Below are positions 1 to 49,342 of a stretch of 55,593 nt of DNA, one piece after another. The stretch is taken from the NCBI GenBank assembly GCA_043803225.1, contig JAZDKF010000047.1, positions 1 through 55,593 on the forward strand, read 5' to 3'. The notes beneath the pieces were generated by a model. The model did not search any database, was not told the origin of the DNA, and worked only from the letters and a program-made list of their open reading frames with translations. Position numbers and translations under genes: made by a program. This stretch comes from Candidatus Beckwithbacteria bacterium. Lineage in GTDB: Bacteria > Patescibacteriota > Microgenomatia > UBA1400 > CG1-02-47-37. Position 1 is the first letter of the stretch; each line of letters begins with the position of its first letter.

Positions 1-99
1 CCTTGGCAAGACTGTCGGCGCCGGTCGTCCGGCGGCCGCGATGTCGCCCGAACTGTCGCAACTTCCTGTATCTGTAAGCTCTATGGTAGAATTAGCATA

Positions 100-135
100 G
101 CGTTCTTTGAAGTAAGTCCGAGCTTCGTTGTAAAC
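100..135 (-). pseudogene. Start-less fragment resembling the C-terminal tail of a Patescibacteria serine recombinase (VYNEARTYFKER)
   Basis: Minus-strand frame reads VYNEARTYFKER, preceded by an in-frame stop at 154-156 with no start codon, and stays open to the window edge. It has the same xRTYFK motif as 14344-14394. Family link is from recall. Confidence 0.4.
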
Positions 136-787: not shown

Positions 788-860
788 GCGCCAGTAGCTC
801 AGCGGATAGAGCATCCGCCTTCTAAGCGGAGGGCCGCAGGTTCGATTCCTGCCTGGCGCA
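788..860 (+). tRNA. tRNA-Arg(UCU)
   Basis: GCGCCAG/CTGGCGC acceptor stem, anticodon loop CTTCTAA, T-arm GCAGG-TTCGATT-CCTGC; no encoded CCA. Confidence 0.95.
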
Positions 861-906
861 CTTCGCTTCGCTCAGTGCAAGCCCTTCGGAAATACCTCAG
901 GGCAAG
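861..906 (+). repeat. Two tandem REP-like units (CTTCG..CTCAG-KGCAAG) directly after tRNA-Arg
   Basis: CTTCGCTTCGCTCAGTGCAAG (861-881) and CCCTTCGGAAATACCTCAGGGCAAG (882-906). Confidence 0.6.
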
Positions 907-933
907 CATAAAAGTGGTAAAATATATTTAGAT

Positions 934-1008
934 GGTGGCTGTAGCTCAGTTGGTTAGAGCGCCTGCCTGTGGAGCAGGAGGCCGGCGGTTCAAGTCCGCT
1001 CAGCCACC
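934..1008 (+). tRNA. tRNA-His(GUG) with encoded G-1
   Basis: G-GTGGCTG/CAGCCAC-C acceptor, anticodon arm CCTGC-CTGTGGA-GCAGG, TTCAAGT T-loop. Confidence 0.95.
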
Positions 1009-1031
1009 CTTCGACTTCGCTCAGTGTAAAC
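1007..1031 (+). repeat. Third REP-like unit directly after tRNA-His
   Basis: CCCTTCGACTTCGCTCAGTGTAAAC, similar to the units at 861-906. Confidence 0.6.
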
Positions 1032-1047
1032 GATCGCTAGTTCACCC
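1023..1047 (+). repeat. Cassette-boundary repeat R0 (degenerate)
   Basis: AGTGTAAAC-GATC-GCTAGTTCACCC; right half matches GCTAGATCACCC of R2. Confidence 0.5.
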
Positions 1048-1077
1048 AAAGTGTATAAAATTAGATCAAAGTATATC

Positions 1078-1106
1078 TTGACACGCTTTTAAAAGTAGTG
1101 TTTAAT
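1078..1106 (+). promoter_or_regulatory. Putative sigma70 promoter upstream of the hairpin/NYN gene
   Basis: TTGACA (1078-1083), 17 nt, TTTAAT (1101-1106). Confidence 0.5.
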
Positions 1107-1119
1107 ATAATTATTCTCG

Positions 1120-1153
1120 CCTCGTCCATGCCTTACGGCCCGACGAGGTTTTT
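1120..1153 (+). terminator. Intrinsic terminator-like hairpin in front of the NYN gene
   Basis: CCTCGTC / GACGAGG stem with inner GCC-TTAC-GGC, followed by TTTTT. Confidence 0.55.
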
Positions 1154-1161
1154 GTTATAAT
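1153..1161 (+). promoter_or_regulatory. Extended -10 promoter (leaderless NYN start)
   Basis: TG-T-TATAAT, 5 nt before ATG 1167. Confidence 0.6.
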
Positions 1162-1166
1162 GAGTT

Positions 1167-1769
1167 ATGCCGAGACAAAAGAAGAAAATACTTTATATCG
1201 ATGGAGAGAACTTAAAGTTTTATATTAAAAGTGTTTTGGCTTCAAAATCAATCCAGAAGCCCTATTTATTAGAAACTATTGATTACGCAAGGTTGTTTTC
1301 TTTTGCATTAAAAGATTTTGATTTATCTGAAAAAAGATTTTATTCAGCGAGACTGAGGGAACAAGAAGGATTTTTAACAAAATCTAGAGAGTTGATTCAA
1401 AAACAACGGGCATTAAAATCGAGGCTAGAACAACAAGGATTTATTTTTATTATCTCTGGTAATGTCAGAAAACAAACCGTGAGCCTTAATGGAAAAAAGA
1501 AAATAATATTTAAAGAAAAGGGCGTGGATGTAAGAATTGCAGTTGATTTGGTAACTGAATCTTGTGACGGTAAAGTAGACACAGTGATTTTATGCAGTTC
1601 AGATTCAGATTTACAGCCAGCAGTTTCAGAAGTGAAAAAGAGAGGCGTTGAGGTTGTGTATTTAGGTTTTGAAATTTTCCACAATAAGGGGTTATCCTAC
1701 ACATCTAGCAGGACGATTCTTTTGAGGAATTCGGAAGTACTGGAGTCGTATAATCAAAATTCTGAATAG
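1167..1769 (+). CDS. NYN domain (LabA/DUF88, PIN-like) putative ribonuclease
   Basis: YIDGENL, EKGVDVRIAVD and SSDSDLQP acidic motifs typical of NYN/LabA. Confidence 0.9.
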   Translation: MPRQKKKILYIDGENLKFYIKSVLASKSIQKPYLLETIDYARLFSFALKDFDLSEKRFYSARLREQEGFLTKSRELIQKQRALKSRLEQQGFIFIISGNVRKQTVSLNGKKKIIFKEKGVDVRIAVDLVTESCDGKVDTVILCSSDSDLQPAVSEVKKRGVEVVYLGFEIFHNKGLSYTSSRTILLRNSEVLESYNQNSE

Positions 1770-1815
1770 TTTCCAACGTCCCGCCAGGGGCGGGCAAGCG
1801 TTAGCTAGAGCACCC
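1768..1815 (+). repeat. Cassette-boundary repeat R1 interrupted by a GC hairpin
   Basis: AGTTTCCAAC-GTC-[CCGCCAGGGGCGGGCAAGCGTTA]-GCTAGAGCACCC; overlaps NYN stop codon. Confidence 0.55.
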
Positions 1816-1861
1816 ATCGAAAATTACCTCAAGAGAATCCCCTATTGTATAATATTCACCT

Positions 1862-2212
1862 ATGAGAATTGTTGAAGGTCAACCACCAAATTGCAGAGGA
1901 TATGCACTACATCAATTAGGTCTTTTAGATAAAGAGGCCTTTATTGATGAAAGTCCTTTAGATCAATACCCTTTAATTGAAGCTTCAAAGGAAGAAGCAA
2001 CTGCAATCGGCGTATTGGCCTTTGATAGTCAGGGAGTTCTCGGATTGAGGCATTTAATGGTAATTGACACTGAGAATAAAAACTATGTTTGGCACAGGCC
2101 TAGCACAGGCCAAGATCCTGTTAGAGAAGGTTTATGGACTGCTTTAAATTTGTATGATGAGGGAATTAGTCGCATGGATTCTCTCGTTTACCTAAAGCCA
2201 ATTAATGGATAG
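1862..2212 (+). CDS. Hypothetical protein, possible minimal papain-like (Cys/His) fold
   Basis: 116 aa ORF with TATAAT 8 nt upstream; NCRGYAL...RHLMVI...WHRP pattern. Confidence 0.65.
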   Translation: MRIVEGQPPNCRGYALHQLGLLDKEAFIDESPLDQYPLIEASKEEATAIGVLAFDSQGVLGLRHLMVIDTENKNYVWHRPSTGQDPVREGLWTALNLYDEGISRMDSLVYLKPING

Positions 2213-2239
2213 GTTCTAACGTCATTCGCTAGATCACCC
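2211..2239 (+). repeat. Cassette-boundary repeat R2
   Basis: AGGTTCTAAC-GTCATTC-GCTAGATCACCC; overlaps the stop codon of the preceding gene. Confidence 0.7.
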
Positions 2240-2289
2240 ACTAGGCCTATAATATTGTTAATTGTCTATTGAAGTGGTAAAATTGTTTG

Positions 2290-2745
2290 ATGCCAGAGAT
2301 TCAAAATAGATTTCATCCTGAATTTTCTCAGAGAGAAACTGTATTAAGCACAGGCATACATGTTCTGGAAATAGTTTCAGAAGAACGGAGGCCTTTAGAG
2401 GCAATTGTTTTTGGTGGTTCGTACGCCCAAGGTAAATATAAGCATAGCGAAGATTTGGATGTCGATTTTTATTGGGGTGAGTGTGATTTAATAAATGTGG
2501 TTACTTTTGCTCAAGTTGTAGCAACTTAAGCGTTTTTAGAAGCAAATTTTAGTTTACACATCAGAATAAATATAAGCCGATCAGGGCAAGTGGTAACAAA
2601 ATCAAAATATAACATTTTTGCACCCCCTACATTAGTAGAACAGTTATCTTTAGATCGGGTTAAAGCTTTGCCTCTTGTTCATAGGAATTCACCTTTTATT
2701 GCCAAAAATCAAGAAGTTGTTGACTTTTGGAGGTTAATAGCTTGA
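2290..2745 (+). pseudogene. Minimal nucleotidyltransferase (pol-beta superfamily) interrupted by in-frame TAA at 2527-2529
   Basis: FGGSYAQG...DLDVD motif; the same frame stays open for 71 more codons after the TAA (AFLEANF...FWRLIA, TGA 2743-2745); TGGTAAAAT 6 nt upstream of ATG. Confidence 0.65.
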
Positions 2746-2809
2746 ATGGTGGCACAAGGTTTTAATTTAAGATAGCTTGAGAATAACGTTTAAAGAAAAA
2801 GCGGAAAAG

Positions 2810-2837
2810 AGGTTCTAACATCATTTGTTAGTCACCC
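2810..2837 (+). repeat. Cassette-boundary repeat R3
   Basis: AGGTTCTAAC-ATCATTT-GTTAGTCACCC; perfect CTAAC/GTTAG inverted core around a 7-nt spacer. Confidence 0.7.
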
Positions 2838-2925
2838 TTAGTTTTTTCTTCGAAAGAATCCCCTAACCATTTCATTTGATTCGAACCTATTTACCCAAGA
2901 AACTAATTAATGGTAGAATTAATTT

Positions 2926-3090
2926 ATGACATTTCAAAAGAATCCAAAACAGAAAAACAATTATCCGGATATGCTGGCAGGTTATGAAAAACAAAGAGCC
3001 GGAAACTGGAATCGATTAAAGCAAAAAATTAAACCAAATTTCAGTTTACGGCAGGGTTTTGTTCCAAGTGCCAGGAAAGTACCGACTTAG
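2926..3090 (+). CDS. Small basic hypothetical protein (54 aa), not in the ORF track
   Basis: MTFQKNPKQKNNYPDMLAGYEKQRAGNWNRLKQKIKPNFSLRQGFVPSARKVPT; TG-G-TAGAAT 6 nt before ATG. Confidence 0.55.
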   Translation: MTFQKNPKQKNNYPDMLAGYEKQRAGNWNRLKQKIKPNFSLRQGFVPSARKVPT

Positions 3091-4226
3091 GGCATTAAAG
3101 AGATGGCGATACCTTTTTTGTCGGCCCTGGCAGTTCGGCCGATTCGGTGAATATAATCTTCCTGGGTTTCGGGCAAATCAAAATTAATGACATGAGTAAC
3201 GTTGTCAATATCCAATCCCCTTTGGGCGACATCGGTGGCCAGAAGAATTTTTACTTCACCTTTTTTAAATTGGGCTAAAGCCCGTTGTCTTTGACCTTGG
3301 GTTTTGTTGCCATGAATCGAGGTCGCTTTGAACCCTCTCTTTAGCAAATTTAAGCTAAGTTTTTCCATCTCCCATTTGGTCCGGCCAAACACCAGAACTT
3401 TATTAAAGCCCGGTTGGATTAACAGATCATGAAGAACATCAATTTTATTTTTTCCGGCAAGACGGACAATTTTTTGAACCACGTTTTCAGCAATATCTTT
3501 AGTTTTAACGGAAATTATAACCGGATTTCTTAAAAAACGAGCCATCACTTCTTTAACCTTGCCTTCAATGGTGGCAGAGAAAAATAATGACTGTCTTGGT
3601 TGAGGTAATAACGAAATTAAATGCTGAACATCGTAGATAAAACCCATATCTAACATTCTGTCGACTTCGTCTAAAACAATAGTAGTAAAGTTTCTTAAGT
3701 TTAGAACCCGTCTTTGCTCTAAATCTTTTAATCGGCCGGGAGTACCGATGACAAATTGAGGATTTTGCCTTAGCCGGCTGATTTGGTTACCCATACCGAC
3801 TCCACCAATGCAAAGGACTGAGCCTAATCTTAAGTTTTGACTAAGAGCCCGAAATTCTTCTTCAATTTGGGCGGCTAGTTCCCTAGTGGGAGTAATAATT
3901 AAGACTTTTTTTCCCCTGTTTTTAAAAGTTTTATCGATTAAAGGAATTAAAAAGGCCGCGGTTTTACCCGTACCGGTGTTGGCGATACCAACCACATCTT
4001 TTCCATTAATAATTAAAGGGATAACTTTATCTTGAATTGGAGTCGGGATTAAATAGCCTCGATTGATTATATTTGTCTGGATTTGATACTCAACCGGGAA
4101 ACTTTGAAACTCATTCTCGATAGCAACTACATCCAAGGGTGACTGATTTTGGACCCGATTAATAAAATTAGACGGATCAAATGATCGCGTTTGCCTGCGG
4201 GGACGGAAAGATCTTCGGCGAAACAT
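3087..4226 (-). CDS. DEAD-box RNA helicase
   Basis: Q motif PTPIQ, GTGKT, PTRELA, DEVD, SAT, HRIGRTAR. Confidence 0.95.
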   Translation of the reverse strand: MFRRRSFRPRRQTRSFDPSNFINRVQNQSPLDVVAIENEFQSFPVEYQIQTNIINRGYLIPTPIQDKVIPLIINGKDVVGIANTGTGKTAAFLIPLIDKTFKNRGKKVLIITPTRELAAQIEEEFRALSQNLRLGSVLCIGGVGMGNQISRLRQNPQFVIGTPGRLKDLEQRRVLNLRNFTTIVLDEVDRMLDMGFIYDVQHLISLLPQPRQSLFFSATIEGKVKEVMARFLRNPVIISVKTKDIAENVVQKIVRLAGKNKIDVLHDLLIQPGFNKVLVFGRTKWEMEKLSLNLLKRGFKATSIHGNKTQGQRQRALAQFKKGEVKILLATDVAQRGLDIDNVTHVINFDLPETQEDYIHRIGRTARADKKGIAISLMP

Positions 4227-12532: not shown

Positions 12533-13147
12533 ATGAAGCGAGCGGTGGTGTTATTAAACGGCGAATTGGCAGATACCCGATTAGTTACAAAAATAATTAA
12601 AAAATCTGATTTAATCGTTGGGGTTGACGGCGGCACTAAACAGATTTTAAATCTAAAATTAGTACCTGATTTAATTATCGGCGATCTTGATTCATTAAAA
12701 GTATTGCCTAAAGATGTTCCGTTAATCAGGTTTCCTAAAGATAAAGATAAAACAGATTCAGAATTAGCAATAGAGTTTTTAATTAAACAAGGATATCAAC
12801 AGGTTGTAATAGGTGGTTTTTTAGGCAAAAGACTAGACCATTTTGTCAGCAATATTTTAAATTTAGCCAAGTCAAAAATTCAAGTTCAAATAATTGAAGG
12901 CAGACAGATAATCTATTTTGTTAAAAATTCTTTAACAATCAAGGGAGAAAAAGGCGATTTAGTGTCATTGATTCCCCTATTAGTTGATTGTTCGGGAGTT
13001 ATTACGACCGGTTTAAAATGGCCTTTAAAGCAGGAAATTCTGAAAATAGGTTCCAGCTTGGGCATAAGCAATGAAATGACTGGAACAAAGGCAACAATTA
13101 AGTTAAAATCAGGATTGCTAATGTTAGTTCACACCAAGCGCCAGTAG
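12533..13147 (+). CDS. thiN: Thiamine pyrophosphokinase
   Basis: VGVDGG, GDLDS, KDKTDSELA, GKRLDH, GLKWPL, GISNE; TATAAT 6 nt before ATG 12533. Confidence 0.9.
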   Translation: MKRAVVLLNGELADTRLVTKIIKKSDLIVGVDGGTKQILNLKLVPDLIIGDLDSLKVLPKDVPLIRFPKDKDKTDSELAIEFLIKQGYQQVVIGGFLGKRLDHFVSNILNLAKSKIQVQIIEGRQIIYFVKNSLTIKGEKGDLVSLIPLLVDCSGVITTGLKWPLKQEILKIGSSLGISNEMTGTKATIKLKSGLLMLVHTKRQ

Positions 13148-20205: not shown

Positions 20206-20829
20206 ATGCCAGTTACTTTGTATAAACGTCAAAAACAGATGATTGATTTTATTTCCCAATATATTCAATCACACGGACACTCCCCCACTTTACAAGAAAT
20301 TGCCACCTCAATGGGTTTATCATCATTGGCTACAGTTCATGAACACATTGCCACTTTAGTCAGAAAAGGTGTATTAAAAAAGTACGAAGGCTCAGTTCGA
20401 GGTTTAGAAATTGCTGATCCAAGATTTAGCAGTGACAGTGCCGGCTTAAATTTACCGGTGTTGGGTTATATTGCCGCAGGCAAACCCATCGAACCATATA
20501 CTGATCCAAACGCCACCTATAGCGTTTCACCCCACATGGTTTCAGGGAAAAAACGATCTTTTGTGTTGCAGGTTAAAGGCGACTCCATGATTGATGAAGG
20601 AATATTAGACGGCGACTATGTAATTGTTGAAGAAGACCACGAAGCTTTAAACGGAGAGATTGTTGTAGCCTTGCTGGAAAACGGGTTAGCAACTTTAAAA
20701 AGATTTTTTAAAGAAGCCACCAGAATCAGGTTAGAGCCGGCTAATTCCAACATGTCACCAATTTATGCGACTAATGTTAAAGTTCAGGGTAAAGTAGTCG
20801 GAGTGATTAGAAAATTTCAGCTAAGCTAA
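20206..20829 (+). CDS. lexA: SOS repressor LexA
   Basis: N-terminal wHTH (PTLQEIA), IAAG cleavage site, GDSM Ser, TLKRF Lys. Confidence 0.95.
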   Translation: MPVTLYKRQKQMIDFISQYIQSHGHSPTLQEIATSMGLSSLATVHEHIATLVRKGVLKKYEGSVRGLEIADPRFSSDSAGLNLPVLGYIAAGKPIEPYTDPNATYSVSPHMVSGKKRSFVLQVKGDSMIDEGILDGDYVIVEEDHEALNGEIVVALLENGLATLKRFFKEATRIRLEPANSNMSPIYATNVKVQGKVVGVIRKFQLS

Positions 20830-23287: not shown

Positions 23288-23310
23288 CCTACAAGGAGAC
23301 TCCTTGTAGG
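23288..23310. repeat. REP-1 copy upstream of RAYT1
   Basis: CCTACAAGGAGACTCCTTGTAGG, perfect 11-1-11 palindrome. Confidence 0.9.
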
Positions 23311-23327
23311 TGTATAATTAACAAATA

Positions 23328-23966
23328 ATGCCTTCGAAAAACACGTTAAAACAATATATAGAGGATAGCTATTATCATATATATAATCGTGGAGTTAATA
23401 AGGAGCGGATTTTTTTAGATGATCAAGATTATAAAACCTTTCTTAGATACCTTAAAATGTATTTATCGTTATCTGACCTACAAGGAGACTCCTTGAAGGT
23501 AAAAGTAGCGCCCTCAAGACAGTTAAAAAATTACACTGATCAAATTAAGTTAATTGCTTATTGTTTGCTTCCTAATCACTTTCATTTATTAATCTGGCAG
23601 AATGAATTTGATAAAATTAATTTTTTTATGCGATCGTTAGCGACCAAATACGCAAGATATTTTAATCGTAAATATCATCGAGTTGGACCTGTTTTCCAAA
23701 GCGTTTATAAAGCTGTTCTTGTAGAAAGTGAGGATCAATTACTTTATTTAACCAAGTATATTCATCGCAATCCAATTGAATTATTACCTACGAGGAGTCT
23801 CCTTGTAGGTTACAAATACTCAAGCTATGGTAATTATTTGAATTTATTTAATCAAGTTTGGGTTAAACCATTAGATTTTATAAACAAATCTTATAAAACA
23901 TTTGTTGAAGAAACAGATGAACGTGACTTATTAACAATAAAGTCGGTGTTAATTGAAGAAATTTAG
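23328..23966 (+). CDS. REP-associated tyrosine transposase (RAYT, Y1/IS200-like)
   Basis: YYHIYNRG, AYCLLPNHFHLL (HUH), YIHRNP (catalytic Tyr), YSSY. Confidence 0.92.
   Translation: MPSKNTLKQYIEDSYYHIYNRGVNKERIFLDDQDYKTFLRYLKMYLSLSDLQGDSLKVKVAPSRQLKNYTDQIKLIAYCLLPNHFHLLIWQNEFDKINFFMRSLATKYARYFNRKYHRVGPVFQSVYKAVLVESEDQLLYLTKYIHRNPIELLPTRSLLVGYKYSSYGNYLNLFNQVWVKPLDFINKSYKTFVEETDERDLLTIKSVLIEEI
23477..23499. repeat. REP-1 copy inside RAYT1 CDS
   Basis: CCTACAAGGAGACTCCTTGAAGG. Confidence 0.85.
23787..23809. repeat. REP-1 copy inside RAYT1 CDS (reverse orientation)
   Basis: CCTACGAGGAGTCTCCTTGTAGG. Confidence 0.85.
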
Positions 23967-23989
23967 CCTGCAAGGAGACTCCTTGTAGG
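23967..23989. repeat. REP-1 copy abutting the RAYT1 stop codon
   Basis: CCTGCAAGGAGACTCCTTGTAGG. Confidence 0.85.
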
Positions 23990-48090: not shown

Positions 48091-48113
48091 CCTACAGGGT
48101 CGGACCTTGTAGG
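48091..48113. repeat. REP-2 copy upstream of RAYT2
   Basis: CCTACAGGGTCGGACCTTGTAGG. Confidence 0.9.
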
Positions 48114-48128
48114 TATATAATAAGATTT

Positions 48129-48779
48129 ATGCCGGCGAAGAACGTAGTTAAAGAATTTTATCCTGACGCATATTATCATATTTATAATCGAGGCGTAGCT
48201 AAACAGACTATTTTTATTGATGAACAAGATTATAAATCCTTTCTTTCTTATCTTAAAATTTATCTTTCCTCAATCGATAAATCCATAAAAGTCTCCCCTT
48301 CCAGAAAATTAAAAAATTATTTTCAGAAACTACGCTTGTTGGCTTATTGTCTTATGCCAAACCATTTTCATTTGTTTATTTGGCAAGAGAATAAAAATTC
48401 AATTAGTGAATTTATGCAATCGATTTTAACCAAGTATTCCATGTATTTTAATAAAAAATACAAACGAATCGGCCCTGTTTTCCAAGGTAAATATAAAGCA
48501 GTAAGAATCGTGTCTGAAAATCAGTTTACTTATTTATCAAAGTATCTTCATCGCAACCCTTTTCAAATTCTGCCTACAGGGTCGGACCTTGAAGGTTACA
48601 AATACTCAAGTTATCAAAATTATCTGAGAAAATTTAGCCAATCTTGGTTAGATATAAATGAGATTTTAAATTATTTTTCTAAAACTAAAACGTTTAATTC
48701 TTATAAAAACTTTGTTGAAGAAATTGATGAGACTGATTTACTAAGAATAAAAAACTTGGTCCTTGATTTAGATTTCTAA
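48129..48779 (+). CDS. REP-associated tyrosine transposase (RAYT) 2
   Basis: YYHIYNRG, AYCLMPNHFHLF, YLHRNP, YSSY. Confidence 0.92.
   Translation: MPAKNVVKEFYPDAYYHIYNRGVAKQTIFIDEQDYKSFLSYLKIYLSSIDKSIKVSPSRKLKNYFQKLRLLAYCLMPNHFHLFIWQENKNSISEFMQSILTKYSMYFNKKYKRIGPVFQGKYKAVRIVSENQFTYLSKYLHRNPFQILPTGSDLEGYKYSSYQNYLRKFSQSWLDINEILNYFSKTKTFNSYKNFVEEIDETDLLRIKNLVLDLDF
48573..48595. repeat. REP-2 copy inside RAYT2 CDS
   Basis: CCTACAGGGTCGGACCTTGAAGG. Confidence 0.85.
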
Positions 48780-49342
48780 CCTACAGGGTCGGACCCTGTA
48801 GGTTGGTGTAGGTTGTAAAGCAGAAAATTATAAACATCTTTTAAAACTTTTAATTCCTGCTGTTTTTGGTTTAGCCAGGCCTCTTTACCTCCACGTTTAT
48901 CAGGACTAAAAACTAATGCCTGCAATCCTTCCCTAGCAGCAGTAACTTGCCCTTGTGAAGCAAAGCAGCCGACTTCAACCCAAGGCTCGATATTGTCTTC
49001 ATTGACAATCGCATGAGCTATTATAAATGACCAAGGAAAATTGTTTCTTTCTAATCTCAAGGTAATTGTTCTGGCAACATCATCTTCAGATATGGGCGAG
49101 CAGGCAAAATAAAATCTGGTTATTTCTTCTGGCTGAAAGGTAAATTCAGGTTGAAAAACCCGTTTAAGATTTTCCGGCATTCTGTTCCAATCTATCAGAT
49201 CTTCGTTTGTACTTAATTCCACTAGCCCATCTGTTATTTTACCGAGTCCAGAAAAAACTTGCTTGACTTCTTGGACAATAGACTCCCTACCAGCGCTTAT
49301 CTCTTGATCCGACAATTGTTTTTCTACGAAAACAGACCCCAT
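48776..49342 (-). CDS. Hypothetical protein
   Basis: 188 aa ORF with AAGGA SD; last codons encoded by REP-2. Confidence 0.7.
   Translation of the reverse strand: MGSVFVEKQLSDQEISAGRESIVQEVKQVFSGLGKITDGLVELSTNEDLIDWNRMPENLKRVFQPEFTFQPEEITRFYFACSPISEDDVARTITLRLERNNFPWSFIIAHAIVNEDNIEPWVEVGCFASQGQVTAAREGLQALVFSPDKRGGKEAWLNQKQQELKVLKDVYNFLLYNLHQPTGSDPVG
48780..48802. repeat. REP-2 copy abutting the RAYT2 stop codon
   Basis: CCTACAGGGTCGGACCCTGTAGG, perfect 11-1-11 palindrome. Confidence 0.9.

What the first reader, a model, noticed from the sequence alone, without database searches (positions are those of the whole stretch)
1023..3090. Integron-like array: four accessory genes each preceded by a ~29-bp quasi-palindromic direct repeat behind tRNA-His
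Seen directly: R2 AGGTTCTAAC-GTCATTC-GCTAGATCACCC (2211-2239) and R3 AGGTTCTAAC-ATCATTT-GTTAGTCACCC (2810-2837) are near-identical. R1 (1768-1815) is the same site with an inserted hairpin, and R0 (1023-1047) is a degenerate copy just after tRNA-His. The core is inverted CTAAC/GYTAG arms around an asymmetric 7-nt spacer (RTCATTY), which is the architecture of tyrosine-recombinase sites (Xer/dif, lox, integron R boxes AAC..GTT). The repeats delimit single-gene units: NYN nuclease, Cys/His hypothetical, nucleotidyltransferase and a small ORF. Two stop codons overlap the left arm, and each gene has its own -10 box. AGAATCCCCTA also recurs behind R1 and R3 (1834-1844, 2855-2865). The sites are far shorter than canonical attC, and no integrase is in the window. 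This may be an undescribed gene-cassette capture system in CPR bacteria, acting in trans.
Basis: partly seen in the sequence, partly recalled or inferred. Interest (0 to 1): 0.82.

Follow-up and report, generated by a model that had tools for sequence, protein, structure and literature searches.

The report
Short repeat bounding gene units in CPR
A conserved ~28-base DNA site separates single genes in a highly variable stretch next to tRNA-His in a Beckwithbacteria-like (CPR) genome and its relatives, and it most likely marks where short gene units are exchanged, although no enzyme acting on it has been found.

Summary
The repeats are real and belong to a family that extends beyond this window. 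The consensus is (TAG)GTTCKAAC-RTCRTYC-RNTAGNYCACCC. A profile built from 13 copies finds 14 sites in related CPR contigs (E 3e-9 to 2e-5) and none in 957 kb of control DNA. Copies cluster in same-orientation arrays, with 4 in the window and 5 in a 4.5-kb contig, and nearly always have one gene per interval. Site orientation is independent of gene orientation. Sites occur in tandem, convergent and divergent intergenic spaces. The tRNA-His-to-helicase interval ranges from empty (L003) to several different gene sets. Two gene units recur with different neighbours, and homology breaks inside the repeat. The site shows no hairpin covariation, so it is not attC-like, REP-like or a terminator. It is not the cognate repeat of the window's two RAYT-like genes, and no R-like site lies upstream of lexA. 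No tyrosine or serine recombinase is encoded in the window. NYN and the small basic ORF are conserved residents, not cassettes. The best reading (about 0.45) is a duplex recombination-type site that bounds exchangeable gene units and is acted on in trans. The integron analogy holds in logic only, not in membership.

The parts
788..861 (+). tRNA-Arg(TCT). It is followed by the trailer CTTCGCTCAGTG (866-877), which recurs after tRNA-His (1015-1026).
   Evidence: (D16)
935..1009 (+). tRNA-His(GTG), the left anchor of the variable interval. Its 3' end (GGTTC...CAGCCACCC) weakly resembles R.
1023..1047 (+). R0, a marginal copy. The right half, TCGCTAGTTCACCC (1034-1047), matches the R profile. The left part is tRNA-trailer-like.
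   Evidence: D2, D16; E=0.44
1073..1166 (+). Conserved NYN leader. It comprises TTGACA (1078-1083), an invariant GC hairpin (about 1117-1148), a T-run, then TTATAAT and the ATG.
   Evidence: 5 relatives, hairpin invariant
1167..1769 (+). NYN/LabA-family gene. It is a resident neighbour of tRNA-His in relatives, not an ORFan cassette.
   Evidence: (1682 homologues)
1767..1815 (+). R1. Left arm TAGTTTCCAACGTC (1767-1780), a 23-nt GC-rich insertion (1781-1803), and right arm GCTAGAGCACCC (1804-1815).
   Evidence: an intact R at the orthologous position in L098; left arm follows the NYN stop in 4 contexts
1824..1846 (+). E2 element, copy 1 (CCTCAAGAGAATCCCCTAT).
   Evidence: (D9)
1862..2212 (+). 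116-aa ORFan with no Pfam or PADLOC match. It has a single homologue among 5.8 billion proteins, and that homologue is also flanked by R on both sides.
2210..2239 (+). R2, an intact site: TAGGTTCTAACGTCATTCGCTAGATCACCC. It is identical over 30/30 bases to the site abutting the helicase in L081.
   Evidence: E=7.5e-10
2287..2745 (+). Nucleotidyltransferase-like ORF interrupted by an in-frame TAA (2527-2529). It is a probable pseudogene, and its Pfam hits are below cut-off.
2810..2837 (+). R3, an intact site that lacks one base in the right arm: AGGTTCTAACATCATTTGTTAGTCACCC.
   Evidence: E=1.3e-6
2838..2869 (+). E2 element, copy 2 (TTAGTTTTTTCTTCGAAAGAATCCCCTAACCA), directly abutting R3.
   Evidence: (D9)
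2878..2896 (+). Degenerate R-like remnant (GATTCGAACCTATTTACCC), 17 nt upstream of the small ORF's -10 hexamer. It is the positional equivalent of the intact R upstream of the small ORF in L094.
   Evidence: (A6); read
2926..3090 (+). Small basic ORF (54 aa), conserved next to the helicase in L002, L094 and the P0020 population. It is a resident gene.
3087..4226 (-). DEAD-box helicase, the conserved right anchor of the variable interval.

Best explanation
R is a double-stranded, sequence-specific DNA site of about 28 nt. It has GTTCKAAC and its imperfect inverted copy GNTAGNYC around a 7-nt centre RTCRTYC, plus an asymmetric ACCC tail.

It marks the boundaries of short, mostly single-gene units in hypervariable loci of Beckwithbacteria-like Patescibacteria. 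In this window the array is seeded beside tRNA-His/NYN and ends before a conserved small ORF and the helicase.

The most likely mechanism is site-specific (or at least site-focused) recombination between directly oriented R copies, with exchange in or near the central spacer. Units would then be excised, inserted or deleted, and hybrid, half or damaged sites would be left behind. The enzyme is encoded elsewhere in the genome.

Shown here: the family, its arrays, its polarity, the variable gene content and the breakpoints within R. Inferred: that a recombinase acts on R, which enzyme it is, and where the crossover falls.
For: 1. A real, selected family. The profile finds 14 sites at E 3e-9 to 2e-5 in CPR loci and 0 in 957 kb of controls. 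There were 0 hits at <=3 mismatches in 1.06 Mb of control DNA. The flanks are unconserved. R2 is 30/30 identical to the L081 site, although the adjacent helicases are only about 78% identical at protein level and the neighbouring genes differ.

2. Arrays. The window has 4 copies within 1.8 kb and none in the other 53 kb. L082 has 5 copies in 4.5 kb with exactly one gene per interval. In L098 R flanks one gene on both sides. Eight of nine R-to-R intervals hold a single gene.

3. Polarity. All sites within an array share one strand (4/4, 5/5, 2/2, 2/2; chance about 1/512), whatever the gene orientation. In L082 four of the five complete ORFs are antisense to the sites.

4. Position. Sites occur in tandem, convergent (L081, L096a, L082 at 2884) and divergent (L096b, L082 at 3720) intergenic spaces. 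That fits a role independent of gene expression.

5. Variable interval. L003 is empty, with tRNA-His about 6 nt from the helicase stop. L081, L099, L094, L093 and the window all hold different gene sets.

6. Portable units. The 116-aa unit recurs in L098, and homology ends at R. The 130-aa unit with its hairpin and R abuts the helicase in L081 but abuts NYN in L099.

7. Breakpoints inside R. After NYN, window/L099 homology runs through TAGKTTCCAACGTCCC and then stops. L099 carries TAGGTTCCAAC|CACCC. Left arms stay with the upstream gene, and right halves stay with the downstream unit.

8. Assembly behaviour. In the P0020 population all 8 places shown end 0.1-1.1 kb past the helicase, and the index counts no contig longer than 20 kb among 29 blocks. 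L098 begins at base 2 of an R.

9. Contents. The units hold mostly ORFans or genes of unknown function, and one pseudogene.
Against: - No recombinase was found in the window or within about 7 kb of arrays in more than 10 relatives' loci.
- There is no read-level evidence of excised circles or alternative junctions.
- The spacer centre varies (A/G) among copies of one array. For a classical tyrosine recombinase that would hinder exchange.
- NYN+R and R+small ORF are positionally conserved over long evolutionary distances, which a cis-acting function would also explain.
- One R-to-R interval (L096) holds five genes, including Tmk and GreA.
- In the P0020 population the haplotype switch lies inside the small ORF, not in R.
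- A 30-bp repeat can also mediate RecA-dependent deletions without any dedicated enzyme.
- The data set is small: about 17 good copies from about 8 lineages.
Confidence: 0.45

Rival explanations
1. R is a cis-regulatory duplex site, either an operator or a boundary (insulator) element, for a DNA-binding protein that controls a set of small, independently transcribed genes. Arrays arise because such genes cluster together.
For: - R lies 6-17 nt upstream of the -10 hexamer in several units: R0, R2, L094, both P0020 haplotypes and the degenerate copy at 2878-2896.
- R-like elements are positionally conserved upstream of the small ORF and downstream of NYN across distant relatives.
- R contains GTTC-N7-RTTC direct half-sites and partial dyad symmetry.
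- The window encodes a LexA.
Against: - Sites occur between convergent 3' ends, where no promoter exists (L081, L096a, L082 at 2884).
- Orientation follows the array, not the gene. In L082 the sites are antisense to four of the five complete ORFs.
- Nothing R-like lies upstream of lexA or of the uvr genes anywhere in the window.
- The distance from R to the -10 element is not fixed, ranging from 6 to more than 60 nt.
- Half sites and an insertion-disrupted site are tolerated next to intact genes.
Confidence: 0.2
2. R copies are classical attachment-site scars. They would be partial tRNA-His 3' ends left by successive integrations of integrase-bearing elements into tRNA-His, as in tRNA-seeded genomic islands or tycheposons, followed by decay of the elements.
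For: - The array sits beside tRNA-His in the window and in L094.
- In L081 the site occupies, to within 2-3 nt, the position relative to the helicase stop that the tRNA-His 3' end occupies in L003.
- All four tRNA-His tails are the best four matches to R among 20 tRNAs.
- The resemblance beyond GGTTC gives p about 0.014-0.085 per copy.
- Tandem integrations and scattered partial tRNAs are documented for tycheposons (10.1101/2020.12.28.424599).
Against: - R is not a copy of the tRNA 3' end. It is 5 nt longer, needs 4 gaps to align, and its non-tRNA positions (AACRTCRTYC) are the best conserved across lineages.
- Units are 0.45-1 kb single genes with no integrase remnants.
- The L082 and L096 sites have no tRNA-His nearby.
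- The tRNA-His is intact and is separated from R0 by its own trailer.
Confidence: 0.12
3. R is a selfish short dispersed repeat (REP- or MITE-like) mobilised by the genome's Y1/HUH transposases.
For: - The window encodes two paralogous IS200/RAYT-like Y1 proteins (23328-23966 and 48129-48779).
- R is intergenic and often sits immediately after stop codons.
Against: - The Y1 genes have their own, unrelated, perfect GTAG-containing palindromes (7 sites, all at the two genes). None lies near the array or in other loci.
- R has no conserved hairpin.
- R is absent from about 53 kb and about 50 intergenic spaces of the window.
- There are no target-site duplications or terminal inverted repeats.
Confidence: 0.07
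4. R acts at the RNA level, as an intrinsic terminator, a processing site or a 3'-UTR stability element.
For: - R begins at or within 5 nt of the stop codon of a co-oriented gene in the window (R1, R2), L094, L096a, L098, L099, L101 and L115.
- R3 folds better than shuffles (z=-3.8) and is followed by a T-run.
Against: - There is no covariation: 72 of 500 shuffles are as good.
- Most copies do not fold.
- Only the E2-linked copies have a T-run.
- In L081 and L099 a canonical terminator hairpin already precedes R.
- In L082 R is antisense to four of the five complete ORFs, and R also sits in divergent promoter regions.
- There is no Rfam match, even at relaxed thresholds.
Confidence: 0.05

Closest known systems
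Integron cassette arrays and CALINs (attC clusters lacking an integrase)
   Same: - Arrays of directly oriented recombination-type sites, one per short and mostly single-gene unit.
- ORFan-rich contents.
- Stop codons embedded in the site.
- AAC...G(T)T-type inverted boxes.
- No integrase adjacent, as in CALINs.
   Different: - The site is about 28 nt, against a shortest attC of about 57 nt, with a single pair of boxes.
- There is no conserved folded hairpin or extrahelical-base logic.
- The G-N-T position that would correspond to the invariant GTT varies.
- Units carry their own promoters and can be antisense to the site.
- No IntI, attI or Pc is present.
Xer-dependent dif modules (pdif modules) of Acinetobacter plasmids, and IMEX elements
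   Same: - Short (28-bp) duplex sites with two arms around a central region bound discrete one- or few-gene modules.
- The same modules recur in different contexts.
- The recombinase is a housekeeping enzyme acting in trans (PMC6449649).
   Different: - R has about 8-nt arms, a 7-nt centre and an ACCC tail, not the 11-6-11 layout.
- R has no similarity to the dif consensus (from memory).
- R sites are in direct rather than alternating orientation.
- The setting is chromosomal.
- The locus shows no GC-skew switch, so it is not at a terminus.
tRNA-seeded genomic islands and tycheposons
   Same: - A hypervariable island beside a tRNA gene.
- Repeated att-like motifs that resemble the tRNA 3' end.
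- Degenerate remnants.
- Strain-level heterogeneity (10.1101/2020.12.28.424599).
   Different: - Units are single genes of 0.45-1 kb without integrase or replication modules.
- The repeats are not true partial tRNAs.
- Arrays also occur away from tRNA-His.
REP/RAYT systems
   Same: - Short intergenic repeats in a genome that encodes Y1/HUH proteins.
   Different: - The RAYT-like genes here have their own, distinct palindromes.
- R is not a palindrome or hairpin, and it is clustered rather than dispersed.

Membership tests
Integron attC / CALIN | Site length of about 57-141 nt with R''-L''...L'-R' boxes | tested here: not met
   R is 27-30 nt with one box pair. The attC length range is from my knowledge of the integron literature.
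Integron attC / CALIN | Conserved single-strand hairpin, where structure rather than sequence is conserved | tested here: not met
   No covariation: 72/500 shuffles are as good, and variation mostly breaks pairs. Five of six copies do not fold as ssDNA. The sequence itself is highly conserved.
Integron attC / CALIN | Adjacent intI with attI and Pc (for a complete integron) | tested here: not met
   No Phage_integrase domain in any window ORF of >=150 aa that was scanned, nor in the gene tables of relatives' loci.
Integron attC / CALIN | Directly oriented sites, each following one co-oriented promoterless ORF | tested here: inconclusive
   Direct orientation and one gene per interval are met. 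However, the genes have their own -10 boxes, and in L082 they are mostly antisense to the sites.
Xer dif / pdif modules | A 28-bp site made of an 11-bp XerC arm, a 6-bp centre and an 11-bp XerD arm, with conserved inner palindrome | tested here: not met
   R has about 8-nt arms, a 7-nt centre and an asymmetric ACCC tail. The dif architecture is as described in PMC6449649.
Xer dif / pdif modules | Similarity of the sites to the host's chromosomal dif, and action of XerC/D | not testable with these tools
   No whole genome of this lineage was accessible to locate dif or the xer genes. GC skew shows no terminus at the locus.
tRNA-targeting integrative element att repeats | Direct repeats identical or nearly identical to the 3' part of the adjacent tRNA gene | tested here: not met
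   The best alignment of R2 to the tRNA-His tail needs 4 gaps, and p is 0.014-0.085 per copy.
tRNA-targeting integrative element att repeats | Integrase gene or integrase remnants within the repeat-bounded segments | tested here: not met
   The units encode NYN, an ORFan, an NTase-like pseudogene, NUDIX and unknowns.
REP/RAYT | An imperfect palindrome with a GTAG motif that flanks or matches the repeats at the RAYT gene | tested here: not met
   The RAYT-like genes are flanked by CCTACARGG-N5-CCYTGTAGG palindromes unrelated to R. R has no conserved hairpin.
Intrinsic terminator | A GC-rich stem-loop followed by a T-run, co-oriented with the upstream gene | tested here: not met
   The terminator scan finds none at R. 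Folding z-scores are about 0 for R0, R2 and most copies. The L082 copies are antisense.
LexA (SOS) box | The motif is present upstream of lexA itself and of the core SOS genes | tested here: not met
   LexA is encoded at 20206-20829. A filter-free profile search finds nothing R-like outside the array, including upstream of lexA and of uvrA, uvrB and uvrC.
CRISPR array | Repeats of 28-37 nt separated by non-coding spacers of about 30-40 nt | tested here: not met
   Spacing is 443-1493 bp, and each interval holds a protein-coding gene.

The most novel reading that the evidence does not exclude
Beckwithbacteria-like CPR bacteria possess a previously undescribed gene-cassette system. Short gene units, each with its own promoter, are bounded by a ~28-bp duplex recombination site and accumulate in directly oriented arrays at a few chromosomal hotspots, here beside tRNA-His/NYN. 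A recombinase encoded elsewhere inserts, excises and shuffles them. The system would be integron-like in logic but mechanistically closer to simple-site (Xer/dif-module-type) recombination.
Probability: 0.35. Interest if true: 0.85.

Novelty: new variant of a known kind. Interest (0 to 1): 0.62.

Why it matters
CPR/Patescibacteria have tiny genomes, are largely uncultured, and have few recognised mobile elements. How they acquire and turn over strain-specific genes is poorly understood.

A compact, site-bounded cassette array acted on in trans would be a new route of gene flux in this radiation. It would give a concrete sequence handle, the R profile, for locating hypervariable loci and ORFan reservoirs in metagenomes.

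It would also explain the recurrent assembly breaks at this locus. Finally, it would extend the short list of cassette systems (integrons, dif modules) to a minimal ~28-bp duplex site.

If R turns out instead to be a regulatory or boundary element, it would still be an unusually conserved cis-element tied to accessory genes in CPR.

Tried and rejected
- **Genome-wide dispersed repeat.** Rejected. There are no copies in the other 53 kb of the window.
- **Rfam family.** No match at gathering or relaxed thresholds.
- **Phage or episome attP donor.** Three viral-contig scans gave only chance matches lacking the CACCC tail, or nothing at all. The E2 hits in viral contigs were also chance.
- **Hairpin (attC, REP or terminator).** No covariation and no stable folds.
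- **dif or terminus locus.** No GC-skew switch.
- **LexA box.** The GTTC-N7-GTTC format prompted the idea. LexA is encoded in the window, but nothing R-like sits at its promoter or elsewhere.
- **RAYT/REP link.** The Y1 genes have their own palindromes.
- **Defence-island content.** PADLOC matched only NYN.
- **Exact-sequence look-ups** of the window's helicase and NYN found nothing on record.
- **Homology between the L082 flanking gene and the window's left-flank gene.** None.
- **Literature.** Searches for CPR integron-like or short-site cassette systems found nothing relevant.
- **A slow fuzzy-regex scan** timed out and was replaced by an IUPAC-Hamming scan.


Full report
**Observation**

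tRNA-Arg(TCT) lies at 788-861 and tRNA-His(GTG) at 935-1009. They are followed on the + strand by:

- a NYN/LabA-family gene, 1167-1769 (Pfam NYN, E=9.5e-17);
- a 116-aa ORF with no family, 1862-2212;
- a weak nucleotidyltransferase-like ORF, 2287-2745;
- a 54-aa basic ORF, 2926-3090.

A DEAD-box helicase converges on these on the - strand at 3087-4226. The nucleotidyltransferase-like ORF is one reading frame interrupted by an in-frame TAA at 2527-2529. It stays below the Pfam cut-offs even when read through.

R2 (2210-2239) and R3 (2810-2837) share a 21-mer with 2 matches at <=3 mismatches, against 0 expected in 55.6 kb. GCTAGNNCACCC occurs exactly three times, all within 1036-2239. The NYN and 116-aa stop codons are the TAG that opens R1 and R2. 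AGAATCCCCTA recurs behind R1 and R3 (D9).

**The repeat is a family that exists elsewhere**

One metagenome scan with a strict pattern returned three contigs.

- L081 carries a 30/30 identical copy of R2, 3 nt from the stop codon of an orthologous helicase and downstream of a different gene.
- L083 carries one copy.
- L082 carries five copies on one strand within 4.5 kb.

Contexts of helicase and NYN homologues added more copies in L094/L095, L096/L097 and L098.

The consensus is (TAG)GTTCKAAC-RTCRTYC-RNTAGNYCACCC, with unconserved flanks. An IUPAC scan gave no hit at <=3 mismatches in 1.06 Mb of unrelated loci. A sequence profile built from 13 copies found 14 sites (E 3e-9 to 2e-5) in the CPR loci and none in 957 kb of controls. 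Viral-contig hits lacked the CACCC tail or were absent.

Within the window only R2 and R3 are full-strength. R0 matches only in its right half (E=0.44), and R1 matches only as split halves.

R1 is nevertheless validated independently. The only homologue of the 116-aa protein among 5.8 billion sequences (82% identity) lies on a 520-bp contig, L098. There it is flanked on both sides by R, and the upstream copy is intact (TAAGTTCCAACGTCATCCGCTAGATTACCC). At that position the window has a 23-nt GC-rich insertion.

**Anatomy and distribution**

Eight of nine R-to-R intervals hold exactly one gene: the window's three intervals, L082's four and L098's one. The exception is L096, where two sites 3.9 kb apart enclose five genes, including thymidylate kinase and GreA.

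All sites in an array share one strand (4/4, 5/5, 2/2, 2/2), whatever the gene orientation. In the window the genes are co-oriented with R. In L082 four of the five complete ORFs are antisense to it.

Sites occur in three kinds of intergenic space:

- tandem;
- between convergent 3' ends (L081, L096a, L082 at 2884);
- in divergent promoter regions (L096b, L082 at 3720).

That spread is hard to reconcile with a terminator, an RNA element or a promoter operator.

The quasi-palindrome is not a selected hairpin. Covariation is no better than in shuffles (72/500), variation mostly breaks the putative pairs, and five of six copies do not fold as single-stranded DNA. R2 and R0 fold no better than shuffles as RNA. 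R therefore behaves as a sequence-conserved duplex site with partial dyad symmetry and an asymmetric tail.

A second element, E2 (GGTTTTTTCCTCAAGAGAATCCCCTAYCCA), directly follows R in three units. In L099 it follows the tRNA-His trailer instead. In L082 the copies share about 55 nt of extra homology on one side and a different shared flank on the other, in unlinked combinations.

**Comparative maps of the interval (window orientation)**

| Locus | Order of features |
|---|---|
| L003 (Beckwithbacteria; helicase 74% identical) | tRNA-His, about 6 nt, helicase stop (interval empty) |
| L081 | 130-aa gene, terminator hairpin, intact R, helicase |
| L099 (NYN 85% identical) | tRNA-His, E2, the same 130-aa gene and hairpin, truncated R (TAGGTTCCAAC\|CACCC), NYN, half R (TAGGTTCCAACGTCCC...), 523-aa membrane protein, helicase |
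| L094 | tRNA-His, EamA, 35-aa ORF ending in R's TAG, R, small ORF, helicase; a DUF4411/HTH-M78 pair lies between tRNA-Arg and tRNA-His |
| L093 | tRNA-His, four unrelated genes including GreA and a CarD-like gene, helicase; no R |
| L115 (NYN 61% identical) | tRNA-Arg, tRNA-His, NYN, R-like site |
| L101 | NYN plus an R-like site at another locus |
| L112 | NYN followed directly by core genes; no R |

NYN has 1,682 homologues, so it is a resident gene. The small ORF is conserved beside the helicase in L002, L094 and the P0020 population, so it is resident too. The accessory genes lie between these two.

**Breakpoints**

- Homology between the window and L098 (about 83-85% nucleotide identity across the unit) decays across the downstream R and is gone after it.
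- Homology between L081 and L099 runs through the 130-aa gene, the hairpin and R's left arm. The two loci then diverge, to the helicase in one and to the NYN leader in the other.
- After NYN, the window and L099 share TAGKTTCCAACGTCCC and diverge within the central spacer.
- R's left arm follows the NYN stop in all four NYN contexts, while the right part is drifted, truncated or displaced.
- Right-half remnants (...TAG..CACCC) precede the NYN leader in the window (R0), and the small ORF promoter in several relatives.

This segregation of halves is what crossovers, or deletions with one end point, inside R would produce.

**Population signal**

All 8 places shown for the P0020 helicase, from independent samples, end 0.1-1.1 kb past the gene. 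The index records no contig longer than 20 kb carrying it among 29 blocks. L098 starts at base 2 of an R.

In the P0020 population, however, the two haplotypes diverge inside the 5' part of the conserved small ORF, and L107 ends exactly at that branch point. Ordinary homologous recombination in flanking conserved sequence therefore also swaps this locus.

**Rivals tested**

- **Recombinase in the window.** All ORFs of >=150 aa that were scanned show no tyrosine or serine recombinase domain.
- **REP/RAYT.** The window encodes two paralogous Y1/HUH proteins (56% identical). Each is flanked by its own perfect GTAG-containing palindrome, which also occurs inside the ORF. These palindromes make up 7 sites, found nowhere else in the window or in other loci, and they are unrelated to R. 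R is therefore not their REP.
- **LexA box.** LexA is encoded at 20206-20829, but nothing R-like sits at its promoter or near uvrA, uvrB or uvrC.
- **dif or terminus.** GC skew does not change sign at the array.
- **tRNA-His resemblance.** The resemblance is real but modest. tRNA-His tails are the four best of 20 tRNA tails, and per-copy p is 0.014-0.085 beyond the universal GGTTC. R is 5 nt longer than the tRNA tail, and its non-tRNA positions are the most conserved. The positional equivalence of R in L081 with the tRNA-His 3' end in L003 remains suggestive of an ancient link.

**Interpretation**

The explanation that fits every observation is a DNA-level site whose role is independent of the expression of adjacent genes. 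The observations are sequence conservation without structure, array polarity independent of gene orientation, presence in all kinds of intergenic space, restriction to hypervariable and ORFan-rich clusters, portable units, and breakpoints and half-sites within R.

The site most plausibly focuses recombination between directly oriented copies. Its 8-7-8 arm/spacer layout matches simple tyrosine-recombinase core sites in format. That is a resemblance, not a test.

I put this at about 0.45, because no enzyme, circle or junction has been seen. The rivals are:

- a cis-regulatory or boundary site, about 0.20;
- classical tRNA-His att scars, about 0.12;
- a REP- or MITE-like selfish repeat, about 0.07;
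- an RNA element or terminator, about 0.05.

**Comparison and novelty**

In logic the system resembles integron/CALIN arrays and Acinetobacter dif modules (PMC6449649). In setting it resembles tRNA-seeded islands and tycheposons (10.1101/2020.12.28.424599). It fails the defining tests of each:

- attC length and folded structure, and the presence of IntI;
- the dif 11-6-11 architecture and alternating orientation;
- true partial-tRNA repeats with integrase remnants.

Literature searches found no description of such arrays in CPR. I classify it as a new variant of a known kind, a site-bounded gene-unit array, with the mechanism unproven.

Noticed in passing
window 23288-23989 and 48091-48802: Two paralogous IS200/RAYT-like Y1 transposase genes (23328-23966 and 48129-48779; 56% identical) are each flanked by their own perfect 23-nt GTAG-containing palindrome: CCTACAAGGAGACTCCTTGTAGG for one and CCTACAGGGTCGGACCTTGTAGG for the other. 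Matching copies of the same palindrome lie inside each ORF, two in gene 1 and one in gene 2, so the internal copies co-vary with the flanking ones. No other copies occur in the window or in the fetched loci.
   Followed up: partly
window 1073-1166 (also L099 4620-4722, L101 7903-8005, L112 168-268, L115 6905-7005): The NYN leader is highly conserved. It comprises TTGACA, an invariant GC hairpin (CTCGCCTCGTCC...GACGAGG), a T-run and then TTATAAT-ATG. It is conserved across NYN homologues of 61-85% identity and has no Rfam match. It is a candidate attenuator or a small terminated transcript.
   Followed up: partly
window 866-912 and 1010-1030; L099 3810-3835; L103 and L109 tRNA trailers: The tRNA genes of this cluster are followed by a shared trailer motif (CTTCG..CTCAGTG/CTCAGGGCAAGC). 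A related GGGCAAGC string occurs in the insertion inside R1. The function is unknown; tRNA 3' processing or termination is possible.
   Followed up: no
window 20206-20829: A LexA homologue (LexA_DNA_bind plus Peptidase_S24) is encoded in this small CPR genome. Its operator was not identified, and nothing R-like lies upstream of it.
   Followed up: partly
window 2926-3090 (homologues in L002, L094 and L102-L109): A conserved 53-54-aa, very basic ORF (MTFQKxPKQKxxYPGML...) converges on the DEAD-box helicase and overlaps its 3' end by 4 nt. It has no family match. In the P0020 population its 5' part is the switch point between two haplotypes.
   Followed up: partly
L094 9679-11339: A DUF4411 (PIN-like) plus HTH_3/Peptidase_M78 gene pair is inserted between tRNA-Arg(TCT) and tRNA-His in one relative. 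This is a second insertion hotspot within the same tRNA cluster.
   Followed up: no
L101 2388-7299: A large serine recombinase (Resolvase plus Recombinase domains) abuts and overlaps tRNA-Glu. It is followed by HTH, Omega-repressor-like and OLD-family TOPRIM nuclease genes just upstream of a NYN+R unit. This is probably an integrated element carrying a defence gene.
   Followed up: no
window 2287-2745: The nucleotidyltransferase-like ORF is a single frame broken by one TAA (2527-2529). It is a pseudogene, a sequencing error or a read-through candidate.
   Followed up: partly
window 1-130 vs L109 and L102 upstream regions: The first ~130 nt of the window (GC-rich: ...gactgtcggcgccggtcgtccggcggccgcgatgtcgcccgaactgtcgca...) recur upstream of the tRNA cluster in L109. 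In the P0020 haplotype A they recur directly upstream of the small ORF, with no tRNAs in between. This suggests a rearrangement that relocates the tRNA cluster.
   Followed up: no
window 13123-13134: GTTAGTTCACAC, a one-mismatch match to R's right half, lies 3 nt upstream of tRNA-Arg(TCG) and inside the end of the thiamin pyrophosphokinase ORF. It is probably chance: 4 matches observed against 2.6 expected.
   Followed up: partly
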